From the NCBI GenBank assembly GCA_022793195.1, contig JAAWCJ010000023.1, positions 38,812-102,811 on the forward strand: a DNA stretch of 64,000 nt, written 5' to 3'. How positions within the stretch are numbered: the first letter of the stretch is position 1; the number at the start of each line of letters is the position of its first letter. Source of the stretch: Lachnospiraceae bacterium. Its GTDB lineage: Bacteria > Bacillota > Clostridia > Lachnospirales > Lachnospiraceae. Made by a program: the position numbers and the translations under genes. Below, one piece after another: positions 1,399 to 42,910 of this stretch. The notes under the pieces are model-generated. The model was not told the origin of the DNA. It ran no database searches and saw only the letters and a list, made by a program, of their open reading frames with translations.

Positions 1399-1417
1399 GC
1401 TCTCCGGTTTTGCTTTT
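1386..1417 (+). terminator. intrinsic terminator after spmA
   Basis: Hairpin CCGGAGAG-TGTAGG-CTCTCCGG overlaps the stop codon and is followed by TTTTGCTTTT. Confidence 0.6.
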
Positions 1418-1528
1418 ATCGTATAGGAAACTTCGTTCCCTATACGATAAAAAGCCCTCCGGGAGTTCGCACTGCGGCGGAACGGAATGATCTTGCTGAC
1501 GCAAGCCGCCGCAGGATTCTTTTTTATA
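1416..1528 (+). repeat. left copy of a hairpin-containing direct repeat (partner at 8936-9001), carrying a 47-bp internal hairpin insert
   Basis: Positions 1416-1463 match 8936-8983 with 2 mismatches by eye, and 1511-1528 is identical to 8984-9001. It contains the perfect stem TTATCGTATAGG/CCTATACGATAA. Confidence 0.85.
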
Positions 1529-8910: not shown

Positions 8911-8937
8911 AGGCCAGGAATTCCTGGCCTTTTTATT
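8911..8937 (+). terminator. intrinsic terminator after the CsoR-like gene
   Basis: Perfect palindrome AGGCCAGGAATTCCTGGCCT followed by TTTTATT. Confidence 0.7.
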
Positions 8938-9001
8938 ATCGTATAGGAAACTTCGTTCTCCATACGATAAAAAGCCCTCCGGGGCAGGATTCTTTTTTAT
9001 A
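8936..9001 (+). repeat. right copy of the direct repeat (partner at 1416-1528)
   Basis: See the 1416-1528 feature. This copy lacks the 47-bp insert. Confidence 0.85.
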
Positions 9002-12488: not shown

Positions 12489-12674
12489 TAAAAAGGCGCA
12501 TATTATAATAAAAAAGACCGGGGAAATGGAATTTGAAAAGAAATATGAGTTTACAGGAAAAACTGTCCCGCTGCTTCTGCGATAAAAAGGATCTGAACAG
12601 GAAAGCCCTTAAGATACAAAGGTGCCTGAAAGAAGTGGAGGAACTGCTGAATAAAACCAGTCCGTCCTGTAAGT

Positions 12675-12966
12675 GAGGGGTAGGGGAAGATGTGGGGGGC
12701 TGTTGCAAAATATAAAATATCCTGATATTTATATCTGCCCGGCCCCCTTCCTGTTTTCGTTTTCGTCCACGTTGATTTTTAGGTTTTGTTTTGCCGCCTA
12801 TTGCCGCCAGCCGCCGCTTCCATAGAAGCCCGTCAGCGGGACTGGCGCCGCTAGCCTCACAAAACCTGCAAAATCTGCCTATCGGACAAACACGAAGACA
12901 GGAAGGGGGGCCGGGCACATACAAATTCTGATATTTTGCAACAGCCCCTCATATTTTCCCCACTCC
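12675..12966 (+). repeat. hairpin-repeat family, copy A (conserved core about 12745-12908, variable outer inverted arms)
   Basis: Long imperfect palindrome. The core is about nine-tenths identical by eye to the reverse complement of 16780-16941. The outer arms GGGGCTGTTGCAAAATAT / ATATTTTGCAACAGCCCC are specific to this copy. Confidence 0.85.
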
Positions 12967-13051
12967 ATCATTTAGAAATTTCAATATACACGGCCTCAGT
13001 GCAGTACACGAAGCCTTGTGCTGGCTGGCAGCGTTTTGGCAAATCCTCCCA

Positions 13052-16649: not shown

Positions 16650-16741
16650 TGTCGTTTTGTCCTTCCTTTTTGCCCGTGCGAGACGAAATTTTCTATGAGA
16701 TTTGAGAAGCAAAAATTTCGGATCCTCCATGGCTGCCCTCA

Positions 16742-16987
16742 AATTGTACAAAGGTTTCGTGAACGGTGTCCACCTGGCGCCCTTCCTGTCGTTGTTTCTG
16801 TCCGATAGGCAGATTTTGCAGGTTTTGTGAGCATAGCGGCGCCAGTCCCGCTGACCTGCTTCTGTGGAAGCGGCGGCTGGCGGCAAAAGGCGGCGGAACA
16901 AAACCCAAAAATCAACGTGGACAGAAACAACGACAGGCAGGGTGTCGGGTAGACATAAATACCGGAAACAAAACCTTTGCACAATTT
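16742..16987 (-). repeat. hairpin-repeat family, copy B (inverted relative to copy A)
   Basis: The core 16780-16941 equals the reverse complement of the copy A core. Its own outer arms are AATTGTACAAAGGTTT / AAACCTTTGCACAATT. Confidence 0.85.
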
Positions 16988-17032
16988 GACGGCGGCGCCG
17001 GGAATCTAAAATTTTTACTCCTTGAATCTCAT

Positions 17033-17063
17033 AGAAAAAGACCGCCGGCACGTGCCAGCGGTC
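17033..17063 (-). terminator. riboswitch expression-platform terminator
   Basis: On the minus strand: GACCGCTGGCAC-GTGCCGGCGGTC followed by TTTTT, immediately 3' of the TPP aptamer. Confidence 0.6.
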
Positions 17064-17082
17064 ACAATGATTGAAAGTCCAT

Positions 17083-17180
17083 ATCGCTCCCTACGCTGGC
17101 ATTATCCAACAGGTTCAAAGGGTCATGAGCAATACGGCTCATTTCTCAGCCGGACTTCATCCGGCTCCCCACAGATAACT
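17083..17180 (-). promoter_or_regulatory. TPP (THI-box) riboswitch aptamer
   Basis: The minus strand reads GGGGAGCCGGATGAAGTCCGGCTGAGAAATGAGCC...ACCCTTTGAACCTGTTGGATAATGCCAGCGTAGGGAG. It contains the invariant CUGAGA and ACCUG...GGAUAAUGCCAGCG THI-box elements. Confidence 0.9.
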
Positions 17181-17227
17181 TTAGTCCCGAAGGGAGAATT
17201 TGTCAAGTGTACAATGAAAAATTTCTG

Positions 17228-18237
17228 TTAATCTCCATCATAAGTTAGAATAACTTTGACGGCCTCCTTCGCCTCCATCAATTCAAATCCTTTTTCCCAC
17301 TGGGATAAAGGCAGTTTATGGGTGATCAGGGCGCGGGCGTTTAGTTTCCCGCTGGAAAGGAGCGCCAGGCAGTTTCTCCAGGATTCCGTGTCGTACCCCA
17401 TGTGGCCCTGGATGGTGATCTCCCGGTTTGAAATTTCGTTGATGGAAAAATCCAGGGGGTCTAACCGCGTCCCCACCCTGACAAATTCCCCGTTGGGGCG
17501 CAAAACCTCAAGCCCCTGTCTCAGGACGGGGCCGGAGCCGACGCAGTCCACGATCAGCCCGCAGCCATTGGGGCCGCAGATTTGCCTGGCTTTTTCCACA
17601 GGATCTTCGGAGGAACTGTCGATAAAGTGGGTCATGCCCGTTTCCCGCGCGATTTTGAGACGTACCTTTTCATCGCCCTTTCGGCCCACCGCCAGGATAT
17701 TTACGGCGCCCATCAGTTTTGCGATCTGGATGGACGCCATGCCCAAAGGCCCCATCCCATAGACGACCACATTTTGGCCGGGCAGCAGATGGGATTTCTG
17801 GGCGATTGCTTTATAGGCGTTGCAGATGGGATCCAGGATGGCGGCTTCTTCAAAGGAAACGCCTTTTGGGATTTCCCAGATGGCGCGTCGGTGTATTTTT
17901 AAAATCTCACCGGGGATTTTTACATATTTGGCAAAAGCGCCGTCAAGCCCTGTACCCAGGTTTTTCCTGCTGGGACAGAGGAGGAAGTCCCCATTTTCAC
18001 ATGCAGGGCAGACACCGCACACATATCCTGTATTATCAGAGACTATCCTGGTTCCTGCTTTCCATTCTGTCACATTTCTGCCGGTTTTTACGATGACACC
18101 GGAAAATTCGTGGCCGCGTATATGGTTAAACCGGCTGGAACCATTTTCTATACGGAAATGCTTCCTGTCGGCGCCGCAGATTCCGGCAGCCTTCACTTCG
18201 ATGATCAGGTCGTCGGCGCCGCAGGACGGTTCCGGCC
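17228..18237 (-). pseudogene. Zn-dependent medium-chain alcohol/sorbitol dehydrogenase, 5'-truncated
   Basis: The frame reads ...PEPSCGADDLIIEVKAAGICGADRKH...GHEFSGVIV...CGVCPACENGD...GMGPLG. About 20 N-terminal codons and the start codon are missing, and the frame is closed by a TAA just upstream. The first possible start is a GTG at 18196. Confidence 0.55.
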
Positions 18238-18629
18238 TTCTGGCTTTTGCGTTCCTTTAAGATGGGGAACATATCATACATCCGCTGCAAATCTTTTTTG
18301 ATTTCTTCTTTATTTTTCCGCAGGTAAGCGCCTGCCATCAGATTGTCCTGGACAGAGATACGCGGAAAGATATGTTTGCCTTCCGGCACCATCACGATGC
18401 CTGTTTCGAGGATTTTGTGGGTTGGAAGGGCGCTTATATCCTGTCCTCCAAATTCAATTTGGCCGGATTTACAAGCAGTCATTCCCATAATAGTCTGCAT
18501 TAATGTGGATTTTCCCACGCCGTTGGAGCCTATGACAGAGACGATCTGTGATTCATGGACTTCCATGGAAATATCCTGCAGGACGGTGGTATCCCCGTAT
18601 CCCGCTTTAAGATTGGTTATCTTTAACAT
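18126..18629 (-). pseudogene. livF: branched-chain amino acid ABC transporter ATPase LivF, 3'-truncated and fused out of frame to the ADH remnant
   Basis: Normal LivF sequence (Walker A GSNGVGKST, Q-loop VPEGKHIFPRISV) runs up to ...FPILKERKSQKAGT. It then continues with 33 unrelated residues read from the ADH gene in another frame. The LSGGQ signature, Walker B and H-loop are absent. Confidence 0.65.
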
Positions 18630-19362
18630 AACTGTCATCCCCCAAATAAGCCTTTATCACATGTTCATCATGTACGATTTCTTCCGGCAGGCCTTCGGCA
18701 ATTTTTTGCCCGGCTTCCAGTACGATTACGCGGTCGGAAATGTTCATGATTACTTCCATAATGTGTTCGATCAACAGTATGGTAATCCCGTTTTCCCGGA
18801 GCTTTCGGATAATGACCAGGGCGTCTTTGATTTCCGATGAATTTAACCCGGCCATTACCTCATCCAGCATGAGGAGGCGGGGTTTCGTGGCCGCGGCGCG
18901 GACAATCTCCAGGAATTTTTTGTCCACCGTTGTCAGATTTTTGGCCGGGCTGTCCCTTAGCCGCCTGAGAGCCCCAAGATCATATTTTTCCAAAGTCTCT
19001 TCCGCGATTTTTTTCGCTTCCTTTGCATTACCTGTGCGGCAGAAAGCACCGATCATGGTGTTTTCCAAAACAGTAAGCTCCGGCAGCATCTGCGTAAGCT
19101 GGAAAGTTCTGGCAATTCCCCGTTTGCACACGGCATTTGCTTTTTTACCGGTAATGTCGGCGCCGTCAAAGAAAATTTTCCCTTTGGTGGGAGGGAAGTA
19201 ACCTGCGATACAGTTAAACAGAGTGGATTTCCCGCACCCGTTTGGCCCCACGATACCGACGATTTCCCCGCGTTTTATTTCCAGGGAGATATGGTCATCT
19301 GCTTTTACGCCGCCGAAATATTTACACAAATTTCGGACTTCCAGTATATGCTCACTGTTCAT
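18607..19362 (-). CDS. livG: branched-chain amino acid ABC transporter ATPase LivG-type
   Basis: Walker A GPNGCGKST, C-terminal Walker B LLMLDEVMAG, and IEHIM. The start was set at MNSEHILEV, after GGGAGG. Confidence 0.8.
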   Translation of the reverse strand: MNSEHILEVRNLCKYFGGVKADDHISLEIKRGEIVGIVGPNGCGKSTLFNCIAGYFPPTKGKIFFDGADITGKKANAVCKRGIARTFQLTQMLPELTVLENTMIGAFCRTGNAKEAKKIAEETLEKYDLGALRRLRDSPAKNLTTVDKKFLEIVRAAATKPRLLMLDEVMAGLNSSEIKDALVIIRKLRENGITILLIEHIMEVIMNISDRVIVLEAGQKIAEGLPEEIVHDEHVIKAYLGDDSYVKDNQS

Positions 19363-20362
19363 GATGTTCCTCCCTTCCGCCTGCGTTATTTTCTGGTTTT
19401 GCAAAGCGGGCTCTGATTTTTGAGAAGATACCGATCATTCCGCGGGGTTGATAAAGAACCATGATAAGCATTAAAAGGCCGTAGACGATCATGTCGATAC
19501 CGCTTCCCGTTCCACCGATCAAAGTCCTGGAATACTCCGCGATGGGGATCAGGATACAGGCCCCGATCACCGGCCCCCATATGGTCCCCATGCCGCCAAA
19601 GACAGCCACGAGAGCCATCAGCATGGACTTGTCGGCGGATATGATGCTGACTGGATCCACAAAAAGCACATACTGGGCATAGAAAGTCCCGCCCACCGCC
19701 GTAAACGCGGCGCCCAGGCAGATGGCAATGGTTTTATAAGTCCTCACGGACACCCCCAGGCTCTCCGCCGCATCCTGGTTCATGGTGATGGTCCGCAGAT
19801 AATACCCCAGCTTGGAGCGGTTTACATAATGCATCACGATCAGCACGATAATCAGGATTCCTAAGATAATGTAATAAAAGGGGAGCTTTCCCTTAAACTG
19901 CATCCAGAAAAAGCTGGATTCCCGCACACGGATATTTAAACCGACGGCCCCGTCCAGGAACCGCTGTTTGGAGACCAGCACATTCATAATCTGGAGAAGG
20001 GCGATGGTGGCCAGCGTAAAATAATATTTCTGAAGACGGAAACAGGGGATGCCGATCAAAGCTGCAAATATCACTGCCAGTATGACGCCCACAATCATGC
20101 CTATCCACGGCGTGATATTAAAATAGAGCAACAAAACGGTGGAAGTATAAGCGCCGATTGCAAAGAACATGGCGTTCCCAAAAGAGTTCTGGCCCGCATA
20201 CCCGCTTAAGACATTCCAGCCGGAGCCAAGCACTGCATATACCATCATAAGAATCAGCACATTCTGGTTGTATACGGTCTGAATTACCAGGGGCAGTATC
20301 AGCGCTGCCAGCAAAAGCAGGGCGCAGCCTGCAGTTTTTTTGAGTTTTTCTGTTGTTTTCAT
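19352..20362 (-). CDS. livM: branched-chain amino acid ABC transporter permease LivM-type
   Basis: 336-aa polytopic permease located between the LivH-type and LivG-type genes. Confidence 0.75.
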   Translation of the reverse strand: MKTTEKLKKTAGCALLLLAALILPLVIQTVYNQNVLILMMVYAVLGSGWNVLSGYAGQNSFGNAMFFAIGAYTSTVLLLYFNITPWIGMIVGVILAVIFAALIGIPCFRLQKYYFTLATIALLQIMNVLVSKQRFLDGAVGLNIRVRESSFFWMQFKGKLPFYYIILGILIIVLIVMHYVNRSKLGYYLRTITMNQDAAESLGVSVRTYKTIAICLGAAFTAVGGTFYAQYVLFVDPVSIISADKSMLMALVAVFGGMGTIWGPVIGACILIPIAEYSRTLIGGTGSGIDMIVYGLLMLIMVLYQPRGMIGIFSKIRARFAKPENNAGGREEHHEQ

Positions 20363-20366
20363 AGGC

Positions 20367-21221
20367 TCACCATCCCTTTAATCCTTTTGGTTTAAAGATC
20401 ACCACCAGAATATATACTAAGAATACAATGGCATATTTGTAGGCACTGTCAAACAGGAATCCGGCCATACTTTCCACGATACCGATGATAACTCCGGCGA
20501 TCAACGCGCCAGGTACGCTTCCGAACCCTCCCAGGGCGATGACGGCGAAAGAGATGTTTCCAAAGTTCTGGCCCACAAGGGGATAGACGTAATAATGGCT
20601 CATCAGTACGGAACCGGCGATGGCCACGCAGGAAGCCCCGATTACAAAGGTAATGGTAAATACCTTCTGCGAATTCATGCCCATCAGGGAGGCGGCGGTC
20701 CGGTCCATGGACGTGGCGCGCATGGCCAGGCCGATTTTTGTTTTATTTAAAATCAAAATCAGAATGATAAAGGCACAGACGCTGATCAGGGCGGCGGCCA
20801 GCTTTCCTGCTTCAATGATAAGGTCGCCGAATACCAGGGAATGATCCAGTAAGGCGTCGCTGATATACCGGAAATTGTTGGTGAAAAACAGTACACAGGT
20901 ATATCGTATGACCATGCCGAGGGCATAAGTCGCCAGTGTCTGGGAAAGCATCGGGGCGTCCACGACTTTTTTGATTACAAATTTGTATGTTAAAAATCCC
21001 AGGAGGGCGCTGAGCATGACTGCGATGGGGATGGAAAATAACGGGTCAAGCCCAAATAAAACAAACATCCAGAAACAGGTGTACATACTCACCATCATAA
21101 AATCACTGTATGCGAAATTTACGATTCCGACAACGCCGAATACCAGGCTAAGCCCCGCGGCATTCAGTGCGTAGATGCACCCCATTAAAATTCCGTCGAT
21201 CAATAGCTGTAAAAACAACAC
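20367..21221 (-). CDS. livH: branched-chain amino acid ABC transporter permease LivH-type
   Basis: 284-aa polytopic permease starting MLFLQLLIDGILMGCIYALNAAGLSLVFG, a typical LivH N-terminus. Confidence 0.8.
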   Translation of the reverse strand: MLFLQLLIDGILMGCIYALNAAGLSLVFGVVGIVNFAYSDFMMVSMYTCFWMFVLFGLDPLFSIPIAVMLSALLGFLTYKFVIKKVVDAPMLSQTLATYALGMVIRYTCVLFFTNNFRYISDALLDHSLVFGDLIIEAGKLAAALISVCAFIILILILNKTKIGLAMRATSMDRTAASLMGMNSQKVFTITFVIGASCVAIAGSVLMSHYYVYPLVGQNFGNISFAVIALGGFGSVPGALIAGVIIGIVESMAGFLFDSAYKYAIVFLVYILVVIFKPKGLKGW

Positions 21222-21325
21222 TGTTTTTCACCTCTTTCTGTTTTATGCATCCGTATAAAAGGAGAATCCTTCCCCCGCGGAGCAGACACCCCCGCATCGG
21301 CCCTGCAGGAGAAGGATACGATGAA

Positions 21326-22693
21326 CTAAGGTCTTTCACTCCATGCCGGAATGGGGTATACGTAATCGGCGCCGGCAGAATCAAATGGCCATGTCACCAG
21401 ATATTCTCCGTCAAAAATCTGAGTCATCAGAAGGGATGCGTGTTTATTGTCATGGGACGCCTCGTCAAATTCGATGCCGTACGCTGTGATCAGTTTACCG
21501 GCGTCAATATTCGTTTCCAGGAGGGCATCAAAGATGGCTTTGTTTTCTGTGCTCCCCGCCCGGTTGATGGCGTCGCATATGGTGATCATGCCGTTAAAAG
21601 ACCTGGCATTTACGCCGTCCATCATTTTGTCGGCGCCGTACATGGACTGATAGATTTCATTGACCTGAGTGACAAGGGGCTTTGTTTCCCCCAGGGAAAT
21701 GCTCCAGGTGTCCAGGCAGGAATAATAATTTCCGTCGGAATTTACAGCTTCCAGATACTGGGGTGTGGTGAAGCCGCCGGAACAGGCCAGGAGCATTTTG
21801 GGGTTATAATTGAGGGCTTTGTAAGCTTCCGTGTATAAGATGGCATCTGAAACATAAGTCCCGTGTATGATGACGTCCGGGTCTGCCGCTTTTATTTTTT
21901 TAGCTTCGCTGGACACGTCTGTGGTTGAGCTGGGGTAAGAAACCTCCAGGACGATTTCGTAGCCCCGCTTTTCCGCCAGTTCCCGCTGGGAATCGGAGGC
22001 GGTGATTCCGGCTTCGGAATTTTCATATACAAGCGCCAGGGTATTGATTTCTTCGCCTTTTTCCCGCAGGGCATCCATATAGTCAAAATAGCCTTCAGCG
22101 GTGGCGGTTTCCACAAAACCTGTCCGGAAATGCCATTCATATCCTTCGTTGTTCAAAGACAGGCTTTTTGAGGCGCAGTCGGCATTGATGAAAGGCACTT
22201 CGTATTGCTGGCAAATCTGGGAGATGGTCAGGCCGACGCTGCTGTTGAAACAGCCTACGATGGCGACGACGCCTTCCTGGGTGATCATACGCTCAGCTTC
22301 CGACTGTCCGTAGATGGGGTCGCCCTGGGTATCGCCGAGGACTACTTCGATTTTTGCCCCGTTCAGGTTGGGAAGCCCTTCCTCGGCTGCCAGAGGCATG
22401 TCCAGGTCGGGATAGGAACCGTTGATAATTTCAGCTGCCATAATGCATGCCTGCTGGCAGGTGAGGCCGATGACGGAACTGCTCCCGGTGGTGGGATAAA
22501 GTACGCCGATTTTAATGACGTCTTCCTGGACATTTCCGCCTGGCTGTTTTGACTCCGACTGGGAGCCTACGGTTTCCTTTGATTCTTCTTTTTGCGCGGC
22601 CGTTTCCTTTCCAGGTTCTTCCGCCTTTTTTCCACAGGCTGCGCAGCTGAGGGTGAGCAACAGGCACATAAAAATGCTGATTAATTTTTTCAT
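21326..22693 (-). CDS. ABC transporter substrate-binding lipoprotein (LivJ/Peripla_BP_6-like) with low-complexity linker
   Basis: Lipobox LTLSCAACG, then an E/K/Q-rich linker, then a type-I periplasmic binding fold. The start was set at the ATG at 22693, after GGAGGA. Confidence 0.75.
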   Translation of the reverse strand: MKKLISIFMCLLLTLSCAACGKKAEEPGKETAAQKEESKETVGSQSESKQPGGNVQEDVIKIGVLYPTTGSSSVIGLTCQQACIMAAEIINGSYPDLDMPLAAEEGLPNLNGAKIEVVLGDTQGDPIYGQSEAERMITQEGVVAIVGCFNSSVGLTISQICQQYEVPFINADCASKSLSLNNEGYEWHFRTGFVETATAEGYFDYMDALREKGEEINTLALVYENSEAGITASDSQRELAEKRGYEIVLEVSYPSSTTDVSSEAKKIKAADPDVIIHGTYVSDAILYTEAYKALNYNPKMLLACSGGFTTPQYLEAVNSDGNYYSCLDTWSISLGETKPLVTQVNEIYQSMYGADKMMDGVNARSFNGMITICDAINRAGSTENKAIFDALLETNIDAGKLITAYGIEFDEASHDNKHASLLMTQIFDGEYLVTWPFDSAGADYVYPIPAWSERP

Positions 22694-22798
22694 ACAAAAT
22701 CCTCCGTATATCATGAGTACTCTTTCATGTTTTTTGTGTCTCTAAAATGGTTTTCCTTAAATTGCCCTCTGCAATGGCATCTCCTCCTCCCGGCCTTT

Positions 22799-23508
22799 TT
22801 ACAGTTCAAATAAGCTTCCAAAACCTTTTATTTTATCGTTGATACCGCAGCTTCTCATGGCTGCCCACATGGAACTTTGGTTGCTGGAGATCACAGGAAT
22901 CTTAAGGTCGTTTTCCAAAAGCTCAATGATTTCAATACTGCGGATATCTGTACAGCTTAAGACGAGGGCTTCGGTCTCCGGCTTAACGATGGATCTGGCC
23001 AGGCGGTATACGGTTTCCGGATAAGTCTGACCGCCCAGGTAATTGTTGGTGATCCTGAGGCTGTCCAGGGAAACCACATTTAATCCGTAGTATGCTAAAT
23101 ATTCTTTCCATCGTTCATTGACATCGTCCAGATAAGGTGTGGTTACACTGATTTTTTTACGCCTAATTGTTTCAGTGCACGGACCACGGCGCCCGAAGTG
23201 GTAATGGCTTTTGTGCCGGAGGCTTTTTCCATCCGTTCCACCAATTCCTGCTCCCATTTGGGTCCGCCCACAAAGCTGCCGCTGGTACATGCATAGACGA
23301 TGGTATTGCACATGGTGGTTCCCAGTTCATAGCTGGCCCGCTCCGTATCTTTTGCCAGATTGAACAGGATTTCCACGGAATTTTCCAGGCTCACCATCCG
23401 TGAAGCGTGGATGGATACGCCTTCCGGCTTCATGGTGTTAAATTCTGATTCCACCGCTGTGTTTGTAGAAGGCACGATTGCCCCTATCCTTGCCCGCCAA
23501 CCATACAT
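22799..23508 (-). pseudogene. Asp/Glu/hydantoin racemase-family (maleate isomerase / arylmalonate decarboxylase-like) gene with a -1 frameshift in a poly-A tract
   Basis: The N-terminal ORF (MYGWRARIGAIVPSTNT...ALKQLGVKK) and the C-terminal ORF (KKISVTTPYL...VLSCTDIRS...SSNQ) join into one protein if the A7 run (T7 on the plus strand, 23152-23158) is read as A8. Confidence 0.7.
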
Positions 23509-23656
23509 TTTAAATACCTCCTGTATTATAGTTATTGTACTGAATAATATATTCGTGTAGAAAATGGGGGAATAATGCCATACAGCAGAATTATTCCAAT
23601 CATTTAGTTTCATATTTCTATTCGTGTAGATTTTTCGGTAAAAAAGAGAAACGCTT

Positions 23657-24673
23657 TTAAGCGCTTTCTCCGATCACCAGCCGCATGGGCAGATAGATGT
23701 CCCCGACATTTTCTCCTCTGATAAGGGAGATTAACCCGTGTGACACATGTTTGGCAAATTCGCTTTTGGAAAAATCCACAGTGGTAAGCGCGGGGGATGT
23801 AATGGATGCGACGTTGGCGTTATCCATCCCGGTGATGGCGATGTCTTCCGGAACCCGGATTCCAAGCTGTTTTAAATATTTCATGACCTGGGCGGCAAGG
23901 TAATCATTCATAACGGCAAGCGCGGTGGGCCTTTCCGAAGGACTTAGGGAAAGCATATTAAAAATGCTGTCACAAATTGTCTCCAGGGAAGCAGTATTCA
24001 TACACACAAGCCGTTCGTCTAAGGGAAGGCCGTTTAGTTCCATTGCCTCCACATAGCCGCGCATGCGGAAATCATTGCCGGAAAGTCCATGGATGCCATA
24101 GCGCAAGGTCGGGATGTATCCAATCCGTTTATGTCCTTTCAATGAGAGATAATTAATTATTTTTTTTACGCCGTCTTCGTAGAGGGGGGCGACGGTGGCG
24201 ATTCCCGGCCCCAGAGGCTGGTCGTATGCCTTTGTTTTAAAAAGAATGATGGGTACTCCCGAATCTGCCAGGCCGTTCAACTGCTGTTCATTGAAATAAT
24301 TACTCATCAGATAAATGGCATCATACTGGCGCTGTGCGATCATCTGTAAAAAGGAACCGGTGGGCTGGCTGTGGCACATGGACACGTAATACTGTTTTTC
24401 AAACAGAATGTTTTCAATGTTGTAAAGCCATTCATTGTACAATATATTTTCACAGACAAGAGCGATCTGAAAGGTTTTGTTTGTGCGGAGGGCCCTGGCG
24501 GAAACATTAGGATAGTATCCCAGCTGTTCCACCGCAGCCCAGACCGCCTTCCTTTTGTCGTCGCTGACACAGTCCATATCGTTTAAAACATAAGAAACGA
24601 CGGCCGAAGAGACTCCGGCTAATTTTGCCACATCGTTTCTGGTTGGTTTTTTGGGGCCATTTGTTTTTTTCAT
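23657..24673 (-). CDS. LacI-family transcriptional regulator
   Basis: N-terminal HTH (PTRNDVAKLAGVSSAVVSYVLND) plus a periplasmic-binding-like effector domain. Confidence 0.85.
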   Translation of the reverse strand: MKKTNGPKKPTRNDVAKLAGVSSAVVSYVLNDMDCVSDDKRKAVWAAVEQLGYYPNVSARALRTNKTFQIALVCENILYNEWLYNIENILFEKQYYVSMCHSQPTGSFLQMIAQRQYDAIYLMSNYFNEQQLNGLADSGVPIILFKTKAYDQPLGPGIATVAPLYEDGVKKIINYLSLKGHKRIGYIPTLRYGIHGLSGNDFRMRGYVEAMELNGLPLDERLVCMNTASLETICDSIFNMLSLSPSERPTALAVMNDYLAAQVMKYLKQLGIRVPEDIAITGMDNANVASITSPALTTVDFSKSEFAKHVSHGLISLIRGENVGDIYLPMRLVIGESA

Positions 24674-24867
24674 ATCAAATTCTATGCTCCGTTTTTTTTG
24701 CGGCGACCAAATCTACTCGTGTCGTTTTTTAAAAAATACCACATAAAAAGGGAGGTGTCAAGAGGGGGGCACAAAATAATAAGATATTTTGCAGAACCCC
24801 CTTAACGATGACTCGGAAAAACAAAAACACCGTCCCCAATGACATTTCATCAAAGACAGTGCTTTCG

Positions 24868-24940
24868 TGCGCCGCCAGGGGCTCGAACCCTGGACACCCT
24901 GATTAAGAGTCAGGTGCTCTACCAACTGAGCTAGCAGCGC
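24868..24940 (-). tRNA. tRNA-Lys (anticodon CUU)
   Basis: The minus strand reads GCGCTGCTAGCTCAGTTGGTAGAGCACCTGACTCTTAATCAGGGTGTCCAGGGTTCGAGCCCCTGGCGGCGCA, 73 nt. It folds as a cloverleaf with a 7-bp acceptor stem (one G-U pair), a GTTCGAG T-loop, and anticodon loop CT-CTT-AA. No CCA is encoded. Confidence 0.92.
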
Positions 24941-24985
24941 GTATTGTCCGTACCTGAGGAAGATTGTCCTGTAGGCACGGACATT

Positions 24986-25014
24986 ATTATATCTCAATGT
25001 TTTTATAAATGCAA
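24986..25014 (-). promoter_or_regulatory. sigma-A-type promoter for tRNA-Lys
   Basis: On the minus strand: TTGCAT, 17 nt, TATAAT, about 45 nt upstream of the tRNA 5' end. Confidence 0.55.
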
Positions 25015-25157
25015 GTGTTTTTTTTATTTTTTTCGAGGTTTTTTTATATAGGATTGGGGCGTCAAAAGTCTTTGCTCCATAAGGTTGTCGTCAAATTACA
25101 CAGCCAGAATAGGTTTCTGTTCCGTTTTGCGGGTCTTAAATTTCTAAGCGTTCAGAT

Positions 25158-25277
25158 ACCGTCGATTGACAAGAGCCTACACGGCCGGATAAGGGTGAAT
25201 TTTGCCATAGACTGCGTTACTTTCGCTCCGTGTACGTCTCTGTACACGTCGTTTAAGTGCCTTGTCAATCGACGGTA
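25158..25277. repeat. 120-bp element bounded by perfect 17-bp inverted repeats
   Basis: TACCGTCGATTGACAAG (25158-25174) pairs with CTTGTCAATCGACGGTA (25261-25277). There is an inner 7-bp inverted repeat CGTGTAC/GTACACG, and a third related half-site GTTGACAATCGAAGG at 25335-25349. Confidence 0.8.
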
Positions 25278-25335
25278 TAATCCGATCAAACTTTCGACAC
25301 CTGAATTTGAATAGTAAACTTAAAACAATAAAAAG

Positions 25336-25364
25336 TTGACAATCGAAGGCGAAACTTTTATAGT
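25336..25364 (+). promoter_or_regulatory. putative sigma-A promoter of bioB
   Basis: TTGACA, 17 nt, TATAGT, about 90 nt upstream of the bioB ATG. Confidence 0.45.
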
Positions 25365-25452
25365 TATTATGGAACCAGTTACCATTGTTGAGAAGGACAT
25401 ACACGCTCCGGTCTGCACAAAATAGCGGTATGGATGCCGGAAGGAGGAATAT

Positions 25453-26502
25453 ATGGAATTGCAGGAATTAAAAAGGAAGGTACTGAATGGAAAACTGATC
25501 GGAAAAGAGGAAGCTCTTTGGCTGGCAGAGGAGCCTTTGGAGGAGCTTTGCAGCGCAGCCAATGAGATCAGGAAAGCATTTTGTGGAAATAGTTTTGATA
25601 TCTGTACGATTATTAATGGAAAGAGCGGGCGCTGTTCGGAAGACTGCAAATACTGTGCCCAGTCGGCATTTTATCATACCGGGGCCGGGGAATATCCGCT
25701 TCTGGGAACGGAGGAGATTACCGCCCAGGCACGTTATAATGACGAACGGGGTGTGCTCCGCTATTCCATTGTGACTTCAGGAAAGAGACTTTCCGACCGG
25801 GAAGTGGACAGGATGTGCGAAAGTATCCGTGATATTAAGGAAAAGACAGAGATCTCGGTGTGCGTTTCCTTCGGTTTGCTAAATGAAGGCCAGTATCGGA
25901 GGCTTAAGGAAGCGGGAGCAGAAAGGGTACATAATAATCTGGAAAGCTCCGAAAATTATTTTCCCCAGGTCTGCACCACTCATTCCTACGACGATAAACT
26001 GGCGGCCATCCGGGCGGCAAAAGCGGCGGGGCTCAGTGTGTGCAGTGGAGGTATCATGGGGCTGGGGGAGACGATGGAGGACCGCATCGACATGGCGCTT
26101 ACAATCAGAGAATTGGGAATCCGCTCTATCCCGGTGAATCTCTTAAACCCCATTCCGGGTACACCTTATGAGAATAATGAACGGCTTAGCCCGGAGGACA
26201 TGCGGCGCATTGTGGCTGTGTTCCGCTTCCTTGTCCCGGATGCTTCCATCCGTTTGGCGGGAGGACGGGGGCTTCTTCCAGATAAAGGCCGGGCATGTTT
26301 TCTTTCCGGTGCAAACGCCGCCATTTCAGGGGACATGCTGACCACGGCGGGCATTACCATCGGACAGGATATGGAGATGCTTTCAGAACTGGGCTATAAG
26401 CCGGAGCGCTTAGATTTTGCGCAGTCTTTATCCTCAAATCCCAGGAACCAGGTGAGGAGAAAGGTGGCGACGATGGTTACGGCCACGGAAAGTAGTACGT
26501 AA
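25453..26502 (+). CDS. bioB: biotin synthase
   Basis: Radical-SAM motif CSEDCKYCAQS, plus YSIVTSG, and HNLESS... consistent with BioB. The last ~35 codons overlap the convergent EIIC gene. Confidence 0.88.
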   Translation: MELQELKRKVLNGKLIGKEEALWLAEEPLEELCSAANEIRKAFCGNSFDICTIINGKSGRCSEDCKYCAQSAFYHTGAGEYPLLGTEEITAQARYNDERGVLRYSIVTSGKRLSDREVDRMCESIRDIKEKTEISVCVSFGLLNEGQYRRLKEAGAERVHNNLESSENYFPQVCTTHSYDDKLAAIRAAKAAGLSVCSGGIMGLGETMEDRIDMALTIRELGIRSIPVNLLNPIPGTPYENNERLSPEDMRRIVAVFRFLVPDASIRLAGGRGLLPDKGRACFLSGANAAISGDMLTTAGITIGQDMEMLSELGYKPERLDFAQSLSSNPRNQVRRKVATMVTATESST

Positions 26503-27512: not shown

Positions 27513-27675
27513 GGTAACAGCCTCCGGTTGAATAATTAAGTCGTAAGTCCGCTGCTATTATACGGCAGCAGGGGAAAAAAGAAAAGAGAAAATGTAATAA
27601 TGTTCGGGTCAATTTTTGAAGACAGAAACAATATTTCCGAGAGCCGCCTGACATGTTTCTTAAGAAAGATTTAAG

Positions 27676-27704
27676 TTTACAATCCCCGAAGAATGTTTTA
27701 CAAT
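27676..27704 (+). promoter_or_regulatory. possible sigma-A promoter upstream of the HTH/acidic-repeat gene
   Basis: TTTACA, 17 nt, TACAAT, about 150 nt upstream of the ATG at 27851. Confidence 0.3.
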
Positions 27705-27850
27705 CGAATTATGCTTCCAGGCGGTGTATCATTGCCGGAGGAAATTTGAGGGCAGGTATTTTTACATCTATTTTTAGAAAGGATTCGAGAGTCAAAAAAG
27801 ATGATAAGCCAATGTTTTTTGACGTCCGAATCCGAAGGGGGATTCAAATT

Positions 27851-30394
27851 ATGGAATTGACCTTTGGCGAACAGATTAAAATTATTTTAAAAAGAAAAAA
27901 TATGACGATCCGCCAGCTGGCGGAGCTGGTGGAAGTCCAGACGGGAAAACCCATGTCACGTCAGAATCTTACCCAGAAGTTAAACAGGGATAACTTTCAG
28001 GAGCAGGATATGAAAGAGGTTGCGCAGGCGCTTGGCTGTACGGTACAGATATCTGTGATTGATTCTGAAAAAGCCGCCTCACCTGCCATTCAGAATGTGC
28101 CCGGGCAAAGCCTGCCGGAAGAGGCAGCTTCAGTGGAGGAGGCCGGAATCGGTGGAGAGCCGGAAAAAGCCGGGCTGCAAAAAAAAGGAAGGCGAAAAGC
28201 AGGGAAGCCTTCTGTGGGACGGCTGAGGGCCGTACACCCGGCTGGTGCTTTGCCAAAGCCGCAGCCGTCAAAACAGGAAGAACCGGCAGAACCGGCACAG
28301 GAAACGCCGGTACGGGAAGCGCGGGAGCTGGCGGAATTAGAAGCTGCGATTACAGAGCAGCCGATACCGGCAGATCATGAGATACCGGCAGGGAAAGAGA
28401 CAGTAGCAGAAGGTACAGATGTGAACGCTGATGTATTGAAGGAAATAGAGATGGCGCTTTTGGAATCTGTCCGAAAAGAGTTGGAGCAGTCCGGCGTACA
28501 AGAACCGGAAAGTCAGGAGACAGGGGATTCGGGGGAAACTGTGCCGGAAGAACCGGAAGCAGATTCTTTGGCCTGGGCGCGTCAAAAGCCATCTGTGTGG
28601 CCAACGTTAACTGTACCGACTGGAAGTTGGATGAGTACGATGCCATTTGGAGAAGATGAGCTGTTAATAGATGCAGGAAGCCCCGCTGATGCAGAAGTGC
28701 CTCTTGACGCAGGACTTTTGATGGACCTCCCGGAAGAGACAGAACTGGCGTCAAAGCGGGAGCGGGGGCCGGAGGAATCGCCCGAAGAGGAAGGGCAGCC
28801 GGAAACAGAGACGTTGCCAGATGCGCAAGAGGGGAGCGAGGCGCAAGAGAAACCGGAAGCAGAGATAGCGCCAGATGTGGAAGAAGAACGTGAGGCGGAG
28901 GCAGCGCCGGATGTGGAAGAGAAGTCAGAAGCAGAGGTAATATCAGATGTAGAAGAAGGAGCCACGGCAGAGGTAACGCCGGATGTGGAAGAGCAGCCGG
29001 AAGCAGAGGCAGCGCCGGATGTAGAAGAAAGAGCCGCGACAGAGATAGCATCAGATGCGAAGGAGGAGCGTGAGGCGGAGGTAGCGCCGGATGTGGAAGG
29101 GCAGCCGGAAACAGAGGGGTTGTCCGATGCGGAAATAAATCAGGGCCCGGAAGAAAATGTAGCAGAAGGGCAGGAAAGCCCGGATGATTTGGAATTTTTT
29201 GATTTGGCTGATTTCGGTGGAGGTGAGATTTCACAGGTGTCTGCTCCTTATATTATGAAACGGGAACGGTCGTCAGAGAAGAAAATGCTCCTTGGGAAAA
29301 GAAATACCCAGGAAAAGAGAGTGTTGCCGGAGAAAAAAAATCTGCAGGAAAAGAAATTGTTGTCCGGCAGAAAGGACCTGAAAGATAAAAACGAAGAGGA
29401 TATATCTTTTGCTTCGGCACCTTATGTGATTTCGAGAGAACCGGAAGAAAAAGCAGAAGAAACGCCGGAAAAAGAACAGAAAGAAGAGGAAACAAAGGAG
29501 AAAAAGGCAGAAGAAGTATTTCAGGAGGAATTGCCGGAAGAAGATGCAGAAGGATTCAGGGCATTTGATATTCTTTCGGGGAGCCGAAAAGGAGACATTT
29601 CTTCTGTGTCGGCGCCTTATGTGATCCCCAGAGAACCAGAAAAAGAAACAGTGCAGGAAACAGAAAGGGAACAGGCGGAGGAACCTGTCGGAGAGTGGGG
29701 CAATGAACCGGACGAAGAAGATTCCACAGAGGAAGAGTGGCCGGAGTGGTCCTTAGAAGAAGAGGAAGAAGACCCCCCGGAGCCGGCCCTGGAAGAGAAA
29801 ATCGCTTCCTGGGATGCTGCCGTAAAGAGGCGGCTGGAGAATCCTTTTGTGATGTCTCTGGAAGAACGTAAAGCGCGCCGCATGGCAAAGGAAGAAGAAT
29901 CGGCCAGGATGAAAAAAGAAAAGAAGATGCCGGTACAGGAAAAAGAAGAAGTAACTGCAGACAGGCGGGAAACAGAAGAAAACCGGGAGGCCGGTTCCAG
30001 GAACGAAAAAGGTATGGAAATTGAAGGGCAGGCAGAGGCTGGAAACAGGCCGGAGGAAAAAAGACAGGAAGAATCAGAAGGACAGACGATAGTAGAAGTT
30101 GAGAACAACGCTGCAGGCTCGGAAGAACCGGAAAGAGTAAATAATATAAGGGGGGAAGAGGAAGGAGAACCGGTAAAGAAGCAGGGACCGGATATCAATC
30201 CCCTTACCGGAAAGGAGTATGAGACAAATACGGTAAAACATCATCCGACGAAACCGGATATGCTGCTGGTATATGACCAGGATGAACATAGGTGGATTGA
30301 GCAGGCGGAACGGGCATTTTTGAATTTCCAAATCAATAAGAGGGCCCTGCTGGGAAAAGATTATGAGCCGCCGGTTTATTTAGACGAAAGGTGA
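27851..30394 (+). CDS. XRE-type HTH protein with a very long acidic, repeat-rich disordered region and a conserved C-terminal module
   Basis: The start was set at MELTFGEQIKIILKRKNMTIRQLAEL..., after GGGGGA; the 66 upstream codons in the track have no RBS. The HTH spans about residues 1-70. About 700 E/P/A-rich residues follow, containing 12-aa repeats and three ISxxSAPY(V/I)xxRE motifs. The C-terminus is DINPLTGKEYETNTVKHHPTKPDMLLVYDQDEHRWIEQ. Confidence 0.7.
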   Translation: MELTFGEQIKIILKRKNMTIRQLAELVEVQTGKPMSRQNLTQKLNRDNFQEQDMKEVAQALGCTVQISVIDSEKAASPAIQNVPGQSLPEEAASVEEAGIGGEPEKAGLQKKGRRKAGKPSVGRLRAVHPAGALPKPQPSKQEEPAEPAQETPVREARELAELEAAITEQPIPADHEIPAGKETVAEGTDVNADVLKEIEMALLESVRKELEQSGVQEPESQETGDSGETVPEEPEADSLAWARQKPSVWPTLTVPTGSWMSTMPFGEDELLIDAGSPADAEVPLDAGLLMDLPEETELASKRERGPEESPEEEGQPETETLPDAQEGSEAQEKPEAEIAPDVEEEREAEAAPDVEEKSEAEVISDVEEGATAEVTPDVEEQPEAEAAPDVEERAATEIASDAKEEREAEVAPDVEGQPETEGLSDAEINQGPEENVAEGQESPDDLEFFDLADFGGGEISQVSAPYIMKRERSSEKKMLLGKRNTQEKRVLPEKKNLQEKKLLSGRKDLKDKNEEDISFASAPYVISREPEEKAEETPEKEQKEEETKEKKAEEVFQEELPEEDAEGFRAFDILSGSRKGDISSVSAPYVIPREPEKETVQETEREQAEEPVGEWGNEPDEEDSTEEEWPEWSLEEEEEDPPEPALEEKIASWDAAVKRRLENPFVMSLEERKARRMAKEEESARMKKEKKMPVQEKEEVTADRRETEENREAGSRNEKGMEIEGQAEAGNRPEEKRQEESEGQTIVEVENNAAGSEEPERVNNIRGEEEGEPVKKQGPDINPLTGKEYETNTVKHHPTKPDMLLVYDQDEHRWIEQAERAFLNFQINKRALLGKDYEPPVYLDER
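28790..29134 (+). repeat. in-frame tandem repeat with a 36-bp (12-codon) period, about 8-9 units
   Basis: Units of the form APDVEE-x-x-EAE-x, for example GCGCCGGATGTGGAAGAG..., recur with a 36-bp period inside the 27851-30394 ORF. Confidence 0.85.
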
Positions 30395-41983: not shown

Positions 41984-42598
41984 ATGGAGATTAAAAAGAT
42001 AACAGACAAAGCGTTTCAGAAATACGGGGCAGTGATCGAAGGCATGGATTTTTCCGAGCTTCTGGAATGGGCAAAGACAACCCCGGCGCCGGATCATGTG
42101 ATTTATGAGCCTTCCATTAAAGAAGCGGAAGCCCTCGGTGCCGCAGAAGACATCTGTCGCCAGGTTTATGGGGAAATGCCCATTCAGATTGGCTACTGCA
42201 ACGGCAAGAACCACAGGAATGATACTCTGGAATACCACAGAGGTGAGGAGTTGGATATCGCTGTGACCGACCTGATTGTGGTGTTGGGAAGCCGCAAGGA
42301 TATGGACAGCCTGACTTCCTTTGACCTGGCCCATGCGGAAGCATTTTTGATACCTGCGGGGACAGGCGTTATGCTTTACAGCGATACCCTTCATTATGCA
42401 CCTTGCAGCGTAGGCGATGATGTGTTCCAGTGTATTATTGTGCTGCCTCAGGGAACCAACTATCCCAGCGAAAAGGAAAATATCCAGAAGACAGATGAAG
42501 ACAAGCTGCTGTGTATGAAAAACAAGTGGGTGATCACCCATCCCGACAGCGGGGAACCCTACTATCCCGGCCTGAAAGGGGATATCATAATGGTATAA
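41984..42598 (+). CDS. DUF4867-like (ureidoglycolate-lyase-fold) protein
   Basis: 204-aa ORF with a strong RBS (AAAGGAGAAG). The sequence composition looks coding, unlike the overlapping 283-aa antisense ORF. The family assignment is from memory only. Confidence 0.5.
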   Translation: MEIKKITDKAFQKYGAVIEGMDFSELLEWAKTTPAPDHVIYEPSIKEAEALGAAEDICRQVYGEMPIQIGYCNGKNHRNDTLEYHRGEELDIAVTDLIVVLGSRKDMDSLTSFDLAHAEAFLIPAGTGVMLYSDTLHYAPCSVGDDVFQCIIVLPQGTNYPSEKENIQKTDEDKLLCMKNKWVITHPDSGEPYYPGLKGDIIMV

Positions 42599-42625
42599 TA
42601 CCTGTGATATATAGAAACTCTTCAG

Positions 42626-42792
42626 GGCAGGGCCTGTCCCATGCGGCGGACACGTCGATTTTGAGGAATTTCCTGCGCCGCCTATTGCCGTCTGCGTCGC
42701 TTCCATTAAACAAGGTCAGCGGCGCAGACGTCTCTATGCTCAGAAATTCCTCAAAATCTTCCTATCGTCCGCAGCATGGGACAGGCCCTGCC
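42626..42792 (+). repeat. hairpin-repeat family, diverged copy C
   Basis: It has the same architecture and conserved loop sequences as copies A and B, with different but still complementary stems. Basal stem: GGCAGGGCCTGTCCC / GGGACAGGCCCTGCC. Confidence 0.75.
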
Positions 42793-42910
42793 TTGAGGAA
42801 TTCTGTATTATCGTAGGCATATACCTTATTGAAACGGCCGAATGGCCACGTGTGCCCTATGGGTATAATGGGGTACCCGAAGGGTATAAGATATCAGAAA
42901 GAGGTATTAT

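What the first reader, a model, noticed from the sequence alone, without database searches (positions are those of the whole stretch)
12675..12966. Family of long hairpin repeats (three copies in the window) with conserved loop sequences: a structured RNA/ssDNA element or a MITE-like repeat
Seen: copies at 12675-12966 (A), 16742-16987 (B, inverted) and 42626-42792 (C) are each long imperfect palindromes, and all are intergenic. All three share the following elements. First, a tip loop: TTCCATAGAAGCCCGTCAG in A, TTCCACAGAAGCAGGTCAG in B reverse-complemented, TTCCATTAAACAAGGTCAG in C. Second, an asymmetric internal pair of conserved strings: ACGT(T/C)GATTTT on one arm and AAAATCT(G/T)CCTATCG on the other. 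These cannot fully pair with each other and they define the element's orientation. Third, GCCGCCTATTGCCG on the left arm. Each copy additionally has its own unrelated outer inverted arms. Examples are GGGGCTGTTGCAAAATAT/ATATTTTGCAACAGCCCC in A and AATTGTACAAAGGTTT/AAACCTTTGCACAATT in B. The ORF track translates A and B into look-alike peptides on opposite strands (CPIGRFCRFCE.SGASPAD.LLWKRRLAA.GG.TKPKNQRG). Neither has an RBS or a sensible start, so this similarity is nucleotide conservation, not a gene. Inference: conserved unpaired regions plus maintained pairing argue for a selected structure. Candidates are an sRNA, a transcript-stabilising or processing hairpin, or a ssDNA hairpin recognised by an HUH-type transposase or recombinase. 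The alternative is a simple decaying repeat. I do not recognise it as a named Rfam family.
Basis: partly seen in the sequence, partly recalled or inferred. Interest (0 to 1): 0.7.

Follow-up and report, generated by a model that had tools for sequence, protein, structure and literature searches.

The report
Mobile long-hairpin repeat family in Lachnospiraceae
The three look-alike hairpins are real copies of an undescribed, non-coding, mobile palindromic DNA repeat found in a few gut Lachnospiraceae, with arms that stay complementary as they diverge and a conserved asymmetric centre; its mobilising enzyme and any function remain unknown.

Summary
Copies A (12670-12974 +), B (16693-17030 -) and C (42616-42802 +) share a ~117-nt core and fold into very stable hairpins (z -12 to -16). 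No Rfam family, plasmid, phage or paper matches it.

I found ten more copies, giving 13 in at least 8 assemblies. All are Lachnospiraceae, and two are in the isolate Marvinbryantia formatexigens DSM 14469.

The element is mobile. The closest relative (YkoE 94% identical) has a clean empty site where B sits, so all 338 nt of B, outer arms included, are an insertion. Other genomes carry copies at other loci.

Pairing is actively maintained: 90% of cells are paired against 74% in shuffles, with 109 double changes against 36. Four observations point to a DNA-level or strand-symmetric cause rather than a sense RNA:
- G-U intermediates are rare.
- Both strands fold about equally well.
- Orientation relative to neighbouring genes is mixed.
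- One copy has symmetrised an asymmetric block.

The 64-kb window encodes no transposase, recombinase or reverse transcriptase.

Best reading: a non-autonomous, MITE-like palindromic element whose conserved asymmetric blocks are a recognition module for an unknown trans-acting enzyme. A structured RNA is not excluded.

The parts
12670..12974 (+). Copy A, full palindrome. The element proper is about 12696-12948 (GGGGCTGTTGCAAAATAT ... ATATTTTGCAACAGCCCC). The outermost arms 12670-12695 and 12949-12974 extend the symmetry into host flank.
   Evidence: (I4, I7). A's outer arms are homologous to those of the L021 and L001 copies. The outer flank symmetry was reached by 15 of 5000 shuffles. The left flank TAAGTGAGGGG is orthologous host sequence in L008.
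12768..12884 (+). Conserved core of A. In order: CACGTTGATTTT, a stem, GCCGCCTATTGCC, the apical stem, the tip GCTTCCATAGAAGCCCGTCAGC, the apical stem, CGCTAGCCTCA, a stem, AAAATCTGCCTATCG.
16693..17030 (-). Copy B, a 338-nt insertion lying between the TPP riboswitch terminator and the ykoE ribosome-binding site.
   Evidence: The empty site in L008 reads ggtctttttctat|aaaatccctctgtgcacggg. The filled site in the window reads ...ctat[GAGATT...AATCTCATAG]aaaatttcgtctcgcacggg. The covariance model finds no copy in L008-L011.
16803..16919 (-). Conserved core of B.
   Evidence: 199 bits.
42616..42802 (+). Copy C, the strong palindrome. Weaker symmetry reaches 42590-42830, which includes the DUF4867 stop codon at 42596-42598.
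   Evidence: (I6, I8). The outer symmetry was reached by 7 of 5000 shuffles. Identical sequence appears in the independent assemblies L005 and L006.
42651..42767 (+). Conserved core of C.
17040..17181 (-). Context only: the TPP riboswitch aptamer (17071-17181) and its intrinsic terminator (17040-17063), immediately upstream of copy B.
   Evidence: (62.1 bits against a gathering score of 54.3).
16743..16772 (-). An outward-facing sigma-70-like site, TGGACA-18-TACAAT, in the right arm of B. It points at ykoE. This is a consensus match only.
12545..12676 (+). Context only: a conserved 43-aa Cys-rich small ORF. Its last codons lie inside A's outermost palindrome arm.
   Evidence: Orthologues of 47-48 aa are called in L008, L012 and L016.

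Best explanation
This is a non-coding, non-autonomous mobile DNA element, about 190-340 bp long, that is palindromic along its whole length. It is MITE-like and confined, as far as sampled, to a clade of gut Lachnospiraceae.

Shown:
- It inserts into intergenic DNA just downstream of stop codons or terminators, often between convergent genes.
- It is present or absent between close relatives.
- Its arms remain complementary while their sequence turns over.

Inferred:
- The conserved asymmetric blocks are CACGTYGATTTT, GCGCCGCCTATTGCC, CGCTATGCTC and AAAATCTGCCTATCG. I read them as the recognition module for a trans-acting enzyme encoded elsewhere, probably on a folded single strand or a cruciform. 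Copies that keep these blocks are the ones that propagate.
- The arms are kept complementary mainly by DNA-level mirroring, meaning intra-palindrome template switching or fold-back copying. The same process occasionally symmetrises an asymmetric block and spreads the palindrome into flanking host DNA.
- When transcribed from either side, the element forms a very stable hairpin. That hairpin can act on neighbouring genes as a 3'-end stabiliser or terminator, or as an obstacle in a 5' UTR. This would be a side effect, not the element's reason for existing.
For: Family and spread:
- 13 copies were found. The covariance model scores them 64-199 bits on the element strand.
- They come from the window MAG, MAGs CAOKOS01, JAAWRC01 and JAAWAV01, three metagenome contigs, and two loci of M. 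formatexigens DSM 14469.

Mobility:
- A clean empty site against a 338-nt filled site at B, in a relative whose YkoE is 94% identical.
- The A site also lacks the element in L008-L015.
- L016 carries a copy at a different site in the same neighbourhood.
- L002 and L003, from one MAG, are about 93% identical over about 228 nt at unrelated loci.

Pairing is maintained:
- 90.4% of cells are paired, against 73.6% in shuffles and 37-48% in slid controls.
- 28 of 45 pairs show changes on both sides.
- 109 cells show changes on both sides against 36 in shuffles, with 0 of 500 shuffles reaching that value.

The cause looks strand-symmetric or DNA-level:
- Only about 11 one-sided changes are seen.
- 10 G-U cells compare with 25 A-C cells.
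- RNA MFE of the minus strand is equal to or lower than that of the plus strand in 10 of 13 copies.
- Orientation relative to tandem flanking genes is B and C co-oriented, L003 and L021 antisense.
- In L023, block 1 is replaced by the exact complement of block 5.
- L002 and L003 differ by an adjacent dinucleotide that is mirrored in both arms.
- The palindrome extends into host flank, including stop codons, at A and C.

Not coding.

Known mechanism: quasipalindrome template switching is established in E. coli (PMC7202029). It has been shown to create and maintain hairpins with one-step compensatory changes (PMC8794818).
Against: - No transposase, recombinase or reverse transcriptase lies in the window, and none is linked to any copy in a consistent way. 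Integrases near L023 and L024 may be coincidence.
- No clear direct target-site duplication was found. B allows at most a TA. L002 has a candidate AAATTTTT on both sides, but L003 does not match it cleanly.
- The element termini are not conserved between subfamilies while the centre is. This is the reverse of a classical MITE.
- Copy number appears low outside the window genome.
- Genome-wide copy number could not be measured, because the collection scans were exhausted.
- High conservation of the blocks across genera could equally reflect host-level function, such as an RNA or a protein-binding site.
Confidence: 0.55

Rival explanations
1. A structured non-coding RNA: either an sRNA gene with its own promoter, or a cis-acting hairpin that stabilises, processes or terminates transcripts. 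On this reading the conserved internal loops and tip bind a protein or form tertiary contacts, and the multiple copies arose by duplication or horizontal transfer.
For: - Covariation is strong in four helices while the loop blocks stay conserved.
- Folding z-scores are extreme.
- A, B and L021 share a left-arm TGCAAA-N17-TATTTA box.
- C is preceded by TGgTATAAT.
- Most copies sit just 3' of stop codons, where RNA 3'-end hairpins act.
- Minus-strand loops are purine-rich, with G-A and A-A mismatches typical of RNA motifs.
Against: - There is no Rfam hit even at E up to 10.
- G-U pairs are rare, and A-C cells outnumber G-U cells 25 to 10.
- Neither strand is thermodynamically preferred in a consistent way.
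- Orientation relative to transcription is mixed, 2 to 2.
- The element is present or absent between close relatives at a clean insertion site, which an ordinary RNA gene would not show.
- Near-perfect duplexes of 30-70 bp would be RNase III substrates (general knowledge).
- The tip domain is replaced in L022, and one asymmetric loop is lost in L023.
- No T-run follows A, B or C.
Confidence: 0.2
2. A folded single-strand DNA recombination substrate, comparable to an integron attC site, the CTX-phage attP hairpin or IS200/IS605/REP hairpins. A structure-specific tyrosine or HUH enzyme would read the extrahelical and asymmetric bases to choose the strand, and would move the hairpin as a unit.
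For: - Architecture: a long imperfect hairpin with a conserved asymmetric internal loop and conserved mismatches (C-U, U-C) that define orientation.
- Pairing is Watson-Crick dominated and strand-symmetric.
- Insertion leaves no obvious direct repeat.
- Two of 13 copies lie within 0.2-9 kb of tyrosine recombinase genes.
Against: - No such enzyme lies in the window.
- The attC R-box consensus GTTRRRY / RYYYAAC is absent, by inspection.
- There is no cassette array.
- The CGTC tag of REPs is present in only some copies, with CGTT in most.
- The resemblance of the tip to the left arm of B. subtilis dif is recalled from memory only. It lacks the other dif half, and L022 lacks the tip altogether.
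Confidence: 0.15
3. A dead, decaying repeat or chance palindromes with no maintained structure, or an assembly artefact.
For: Copy number is low, distribution is narrow, and most sequences come from MAGs.
Against: - Compensatory changes far exceed the shuffled and slid controls.
- The blocks are more than 90% conserved across genera, while the stems have turned over completely.
- Independent assemblies and an isolate genome carry the element.
Confidence: 0.03

Closest known systems
Bacterial MITEs and long stem-loop intergenic repeats. Examples recalled from memory are ERIC, Correia/NEMIS, RUP and enterococcal EFAR. The general class is surveyed in PMC1590033.
   Same: Both are short, non-coding, dispersed, intergenic and palindromic along the whole length. 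Both are often found 3' of genes or between convergent genes, fold into RNA hairpins when transcribed, and show insertion polymorphism between relatives.
   Different: - Here the centre is conserved across subfamilies and the termini are not.
- The arms co-vary instead of decaying.
- No clear direct target-site duplication was found.
- No parent insertion sequence was found.
- Copy number is low.
- The palindrome spreads into the flanking DNA.
REP/BIME repeats and their RAYT transposases (PMC3733652, PMC2817692).
   Same: Both are extragenic palindromes with an unpaired tag at the foot of the hairpin. Both prefer sites between convergent or unidirectional genes, and both are proposed to be mobilised in trans as ssDNA hairpins.
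   Different: - REPs are 20-40 bp and usually number more than 100 per genome. This element is 190-340 bp and low-copy.
- A GTAG tag is absent. CGTC occurs only in some copies, with CGTT in most.
- No RAYT gene was seen.
Integron attC sites.
   Same: Both are imperfect hairpins of variable length and sequence. In both, the structure together with a few asymmetric or extrahelical bases is what is conserved, and this defines the strand.
   Different: - There is no R''/R' GTTRRRY core.
- There is no cassette array and no intI gene.
- In attC the variable part is central. Here the centre is conserved and the outer stem varies.
- This element is larger.
Quasipalindrome template-switch mutagenesis, and hairpins created by template switching (PMC7202029, PMC8794818).
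   Same: It explains three observations here: one-step compensatory changes, conversion of an asymmetric block to perfect complementarity (L023), and inverted copies of flanking DNA.
   Different: It is a mutational process, not an element family. It does not explain why the asymmetric blocks are conserved, nor how the element reaches new loci.

Membership tests
MITE (non-autonomous DNA transposon) | Short, non-coding and present in several dispersed copies | tested here: met
   The element is 190-340 bp. Reading frames are broken by stop codons. Three copies lie in the window and 13 were found overall.
MITE (non-autonomous DNA transposon) | Insertion polymorphism, seen as empty against filled sites | tested here: met
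   The B site is empty in L008-L011 and filled in the window.
MITE (non-autonomous DNA transposon) | Terminal inverted repeats conserved across the family | tested here: not met
   The arms are inverted repeats within each copy, but the terminal sequences differ between subfamilies while the core is conserved.
MITE (non-autonomous DNA transposon) | Direct target-site duplication of fixed length | tested here: inconclusive
   B allows at most a TA, and only by assuming one substitution. L002 has AAATTTTT on both sides, while L003 has only AAAATT. A and C show inverted, not direct, flank similarity.
MITE (non-autonomous DNA transposon) | A cognate autonomous insertion sequence with matching ends | not testable with these tools
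   There is no transposase in the window and no plasmid or phage match. The genome-wide scans were exhausted.
REP/BIME | A 20-40 bp unit with a GTAG or CGTC tag, high copy number and an associated RAYT | tested here: not met
   The unit is at least 190 bp. The tag position reads CGTT in most copies and CGTC in some. No RAYT lies in the window. Definition taken from PMC3733652.
Integron attC | R''/L''/L'/R' boxes with GTTRRRY, arranged in arrays next to intI | tested here: not met
   The consensus is absent from the sequences. The copies are scattered among housekeeping genes, with no integrase in the window.
Any Rfam 15 RNA family | A score at or above the family's gathering threshold | tested here: not met
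   Only tRNA and TPP pass. At E up to 10, the only hit on a copy is a spurious miRNA hairpin at 29.8 bits against a gathering score of 100.
IS200/IS605-derived PATE | Distinct subterminal left-end and right-end hairpins, insertion 3' of a fixed tetra- or pentanucleotide, and a TnpA(Y1) gene in the genome | not tested
   The element is a single hairpin rather than two subterminal ones. Too few boundaries are defined to judge the target motif. The genomes could not be scanned for TnpA.
Intrinsic (Rho-independent) terminator | A short GC-rich stem followed by a T-run | tested here: not met
   No T-run follows A, B or C. Only the L016 and L002 copies have A-tract and T-tract feet.

The most novel reading that the evidence does not exclude
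The element could be a new kind of hairpin mobile element, recognised through its asymmetric core by a structure-specific enzyme that has not been linked to it. On this reading the arms are regenerated from one another by fold-back or template-switch copying at each propagation. The element would therefore self-palindromise and capture flanking host DNA as new inverted outer layers. This would be a Firmicute counterpart of attC-like or REP-like ssDNA elements with a distinct architecture.
Probability: 0.12. Interest if true: 0.75.

Novelty: new variant of a known kind. Interest (0 to 1): 0.45.

Why it matters
If the reading is right, this adds an undescribed repeat family to gut Lachnospiraceae. 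Its architecture inverts the usual MITE logic: the centre is conserved and asymmetric, and the ends turn over quickly while staying mutually complementary.

It is a natural case for separating two sources of covariation: that created by DNA-level template switching and that created by RNA selection. This distinction matters for every covariation-based RNA motif screen.

Practical consequences:
- The element breaks short-read assemblies at its palindrome.
- It can land inside regulatory leaders. Copy B separates a TPP riboswitch from the genes it controls.
- One host, M. formatexigens DSM 14469, is cultivable, so transcription, protein binding and mobility can be tested directly.

Tried and rejected
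- **Rfam.** I searched at gathering scores and at E up to 10. No family matches.
- **Exact-pattern scans.** Viral contigs gave 0 hits twice. Genome contigs gave 3 true hits. JGI metagenomes gave 1 hit, which lacks the other blocks and is a chance match.
- **blastn.** The core and A's outer arm were searched against plasmids and phages. The result was nothing, or chance hits at E of 1 or more. The remembered resemblance of A's termini (GGCTGTTGCAAAAT) to ISL3-type inverted repeats therefore stays an untested lead.
- **Searching translated core frames as pseudo-proteins.** The minus frame found P0121 and, with the exhaustive library, P0122, P0123, P0125 and P0126. The plus frame found nothing. 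P0124 and P0128 are unrelated repeats.
- **Extending the window contig through end proteins.** This returned only short contigs.
- **Coding hypothesis.** Rejected, because the frames carry stop codons and shift between copies.
- **Strand choice from wobble pairs or folding energies.** No consistent preference was found.
- **Promoter and terminator scans.** Only consensus-level matches were found, and none is shared by all copies.
- **Host-flank palindromy at B.** Not significant, with 466 of 5000 shuffles as good.
- **Literature.** Searches for the motif strings and for Lachnospiraceae MITEs found nothing relevant.

Full report
**1. Observation**

- AAAATCTKCCTATCG and GCCGCCTWTTGCCG occur without mismatch only in the three copies. 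For the second motif, six matches at up to 2 mismatches compare with 1.3 expected, and no shuffle reached six.
- The repeat finder pairs A with B as a 189-nt, 86% complementary inverted repeat. It also reports the internal arms of each copy.
- Each copy folds as one long hairpin, with z-scores of -15.7, -12.1 and -14.3.

Details needing correction:
- B has GCCGCCTTTTGCCG.
- The palindromes are longer than stated.
- GATTTT pairs with AAAATC, so the 'non-pairing' strings form an asymmetric internal loop.

Independent assemblies reproduce C and half of B. Their contigs break inside the palindrome. The structure is therefore real.

**2. Anatomy**

An alignment of 13 copies gives this order from outside to centre:
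- an outer stem P1, whose sequence is specific to each subfamily;
- CACGTYGATTTT, facing AAAATCTGCCTATCG. This gives six invariant pairs plus an asymmetric loop in which the 3' strand carries extra CCUAUC;
- stem P3;
- GCGCCGCCTATTGCC, facing CGCTATGCTC. This is a conserved imperfect helix with C-U and U-C mismatches;
- the apical stem P4, whose sequence is fully variable;
- the tip, GCTTCCAYNRAAGCNGGTCAGC in 11 copies.

The motif GC(C)TAT recurs three times in the same orientation. P2 and P3 look like a tandem duplication (TTGATTTT twice, facing GCAAAATCT twice). Both points are read directly.

**3. Context in the window**

All annotated neighbours are housekeeping genes.
- A lies after trmB and a conserved 43-aa ORF, and faces the 3' end of a ykoC/cbiQ-type gene.
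- B lies between a TPP riboswitch with its terminator and ykoE, the first gene of a thiamine-precursor ECF/ABC operon.
- C lies between a DUF4867 gene and tatD/ksgA.

Pfam annotation of 50 ORFs across the 64 kb finds no transposase, integrase, HUH protein or reverse transcriptase.

**4. Relatives**

Rfam has no match. Plasmid, phage and viral collections have none.

The exact-pattern scan of one genome per species found three copies in two Lachnospiraceae MAGs: L001 from one, and L002 and L003 from the other. The JGI metagenome scan gave only a chance hit.

Gene callers sometimes translate the element, so I searched its translated frames as pseudo-proteins. This found BRYFOR_05131 of Marvinbryantia formatexigens DSM 14469, and four more pseudo-proteins in the exhaustive library. 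Their contigs hold copies L020, L021, L022 (two copies), L023 and L024.

With L016, the family has 13 copies in at least 8 assemblies, all Lachnospiraceae where named. The window genome is a 'Lachnospiraceae bacterium' MAG.

**5. Mobility**

I recovered orthologous loci through YkoE homologues.
- In the closest relative (94% identity; four assemblies, L008-L011) the covariance model finds no copy.
- There the B site reads ggtctttttctat|aaaatccctctgtgcacggg. The window has 338 extra nucleotides exactly at that point, with the flanks otherwise collinear. All nested arms of B therefore belong to the inserted DNA.
- The A site is also unoccupied in L008-L015, although that interval has diverged, so the boundary is not clean.
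- L016, a relative at 88% identity, has a diverged copy at another site, next to a tRNA gene.
- L002 and L003 are about 93% identical over about 228 nt at unrelated loci of one MAG.
- A's outer arms recur in the L021 and L001 copies, so the cluster-1 element is about 250 nt long, not 190.

**6. Is the structure selected, and at what level?**

On the MAFFT alignment, 45 consensus pairs give these figures:
- 90.4% of cells are paired, against 73.6% in column shuffles and 37-48% when the partners are slid.
- 28 pairs show changes on both sides.
- 109 cells show changes on both sides against 36, with 0 of 500 shuffles reaching that value.

This is not a passively decaying repeat. The pattern, however, is not that of a sense-strand RNA:
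- One-sided (G-U type) changes are rare, at about 11.
- G-U cells (10) are outnumbered by A-C cells (25).
- RNA folding energy of the complementary strand is equal or better in 10 of 13 copies.
- Among copies flanked by tandem genes, two are co-oriented (B, C) and two are antisense (L003, L021). The remaining copies lie between convergent genes, where orientation carries no information.

Three further observations point to arm-to-arm copying at the DNA level:
- In L023, block 1 is replaced by the exact complement of block 5.
- L002 and L003 differ by an adjacent dinucleotide that is mirrored in both arms.
- At A and C the palindrome continues into host flank, including stop codons of host ORFs. 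These matches were reached by only 15 and 7 of 5000 shuffles. At B the flank symmetry is not significant.

Template switching in quasipalindromes is an established mechanism (PMC7202029). It is known to generate one-step compensatory changes in hairpins (PMC8794818).

**7. Interpretation**

The best-supported reading is a non-autonomous, MITE-like palindromic mobile element.

The four asymmetric blocks stay more than 90% identical across genera while every stem has turned over, and despite a demonstrable tendency to symmetrise. They must therefore be under selection. I infer that they are the recognition module for a trans-acting enzyme. This step is inferred, not shown, and no partner was found.

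Effects on neighbouring genes are plausible by-products: a hairpin at mRNA 3' ends, a 338-nt hairpin in the thi leader, and an outward promoter-like site in B. None of these was tested.

The main rival is a structured RNA, possibly read from the strand I call minus, whose loops are purine-rich. It remains possible at about 0.2.

**8. Comparison with known systems**

The element resembles long stem-loop intergenic repeats and MITEs (PMC1590033). In logic it also resembles REP/RAYT (PMC3733652, PMC2817692) and attC sites.

It fails the defining tests for REP (size, tag, copy number) and for attC (core sites, arrays). It also fails two classical MITE criteria, conserved termini and a clear direct target duplication.

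I therefore file it as a new variant of the palindromic intergenic repeat kind, not as a member of any named family.

**9. Limits**
- Only 13 copies are available, and several are closely related.
- The alignment of the outer stems is imperfect.
- No genome-wide copy number, expression data or enzyme is available.
- The link between the relative with empty sites (L011) and the MAG carrying L001 rests only on a shared sequencing run.

Noticed in passing
window 1414-1468 and 8918-8983: Two copies, 96% identical, of a different short palindromic repeat (TTATCGTATAGGAAAC..GTTCCCTATACGATAAAAAGCCCTCCGGG). They are in direct orientation and bracket a 7.5-kb block encoding a Schlafen/AlbA_2-HTH protein, two hybrid histidine kinases and a CsoR-like repressor. 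They could be duplicated terminators or the ends of an inserted block.
   Followed up: no
window 16693-17181 (- strand): Copy B separates the TPP riboswitch and its terminator (17040-17181) from the ykoE ribosome-binding site. Its right arm carries an outward sigma-70-like site, TGGACA-18-TACAAT (16772-16743), pointing at ykoE. If that site is active, the thiamine-precursor transporter operon could escape riboswitch control in this strain.
   Followed up: partly
window 28845-29134, inside ORF 27653-30394: A 36-bp tandem repeat of at least six copies, 65-75% identical, lies inside a 913-aa ORF that has no Pfam match. It encodes a 12-residue repeat protein.
   Followed up: no
window 12545-12676 (+): A conserved Cys-rich 43-aa ORF (MSLQEKLSRCFCDKKDLNRKALKIQRCLKEVEELLNKTSPSCK) lies downstream of trmB. 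Orthologues of 47-48 aa are called in three related genomes. Copy A abuts its stop codon.
   Followed up: partly
L023 10014-10198 (-): In this copy the left block CACGTTGATTTT is replaced by AATAGGCAGATTTT, the exact complement of the right block. The asymmetric loop is therefore lost. A trio of tyrosine recombinases lies 4-9 kb away.
   Followed up: partly
L022 295-494 (+) and 621-823 (-): Two diverged copies sit head-to-head, 126 nt apart, on a 1-kb contig. Both carry a different apical domain (GCAAACTCGCCTGC..GCAGGCTCAGACA) in place of the usual tip loop.
   Followed up: partly
L024 10035-10226 (-), M. formatexigens ACCL02000008: The second copy in the isolate lies between the stop codon of a histidine kinase gene and the integrase end of a Tn916-like element. 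Its left arm is tandemly duplicated.
   Followed up: no
L005, L006 and L029 (contig ends): Short-read assemblies of the same strain end inside the palindromes of copies C and B. The element therefore fragments assemblies and will be under-counted in MAGs.
   Followed up: yes
window 17228-26394 compared with L008: The relative L008 lacks the window's roughly 9-kb block holding an alcohol dehydrogenase, a branched-chain amino-acid ABC transporter, a LacI regulator and tRNA-Lys. In L008 and L016 the tRNA sits next to the riboswitch region in different orientations. The neighbourhood has been rearranged.
   Followed up: no
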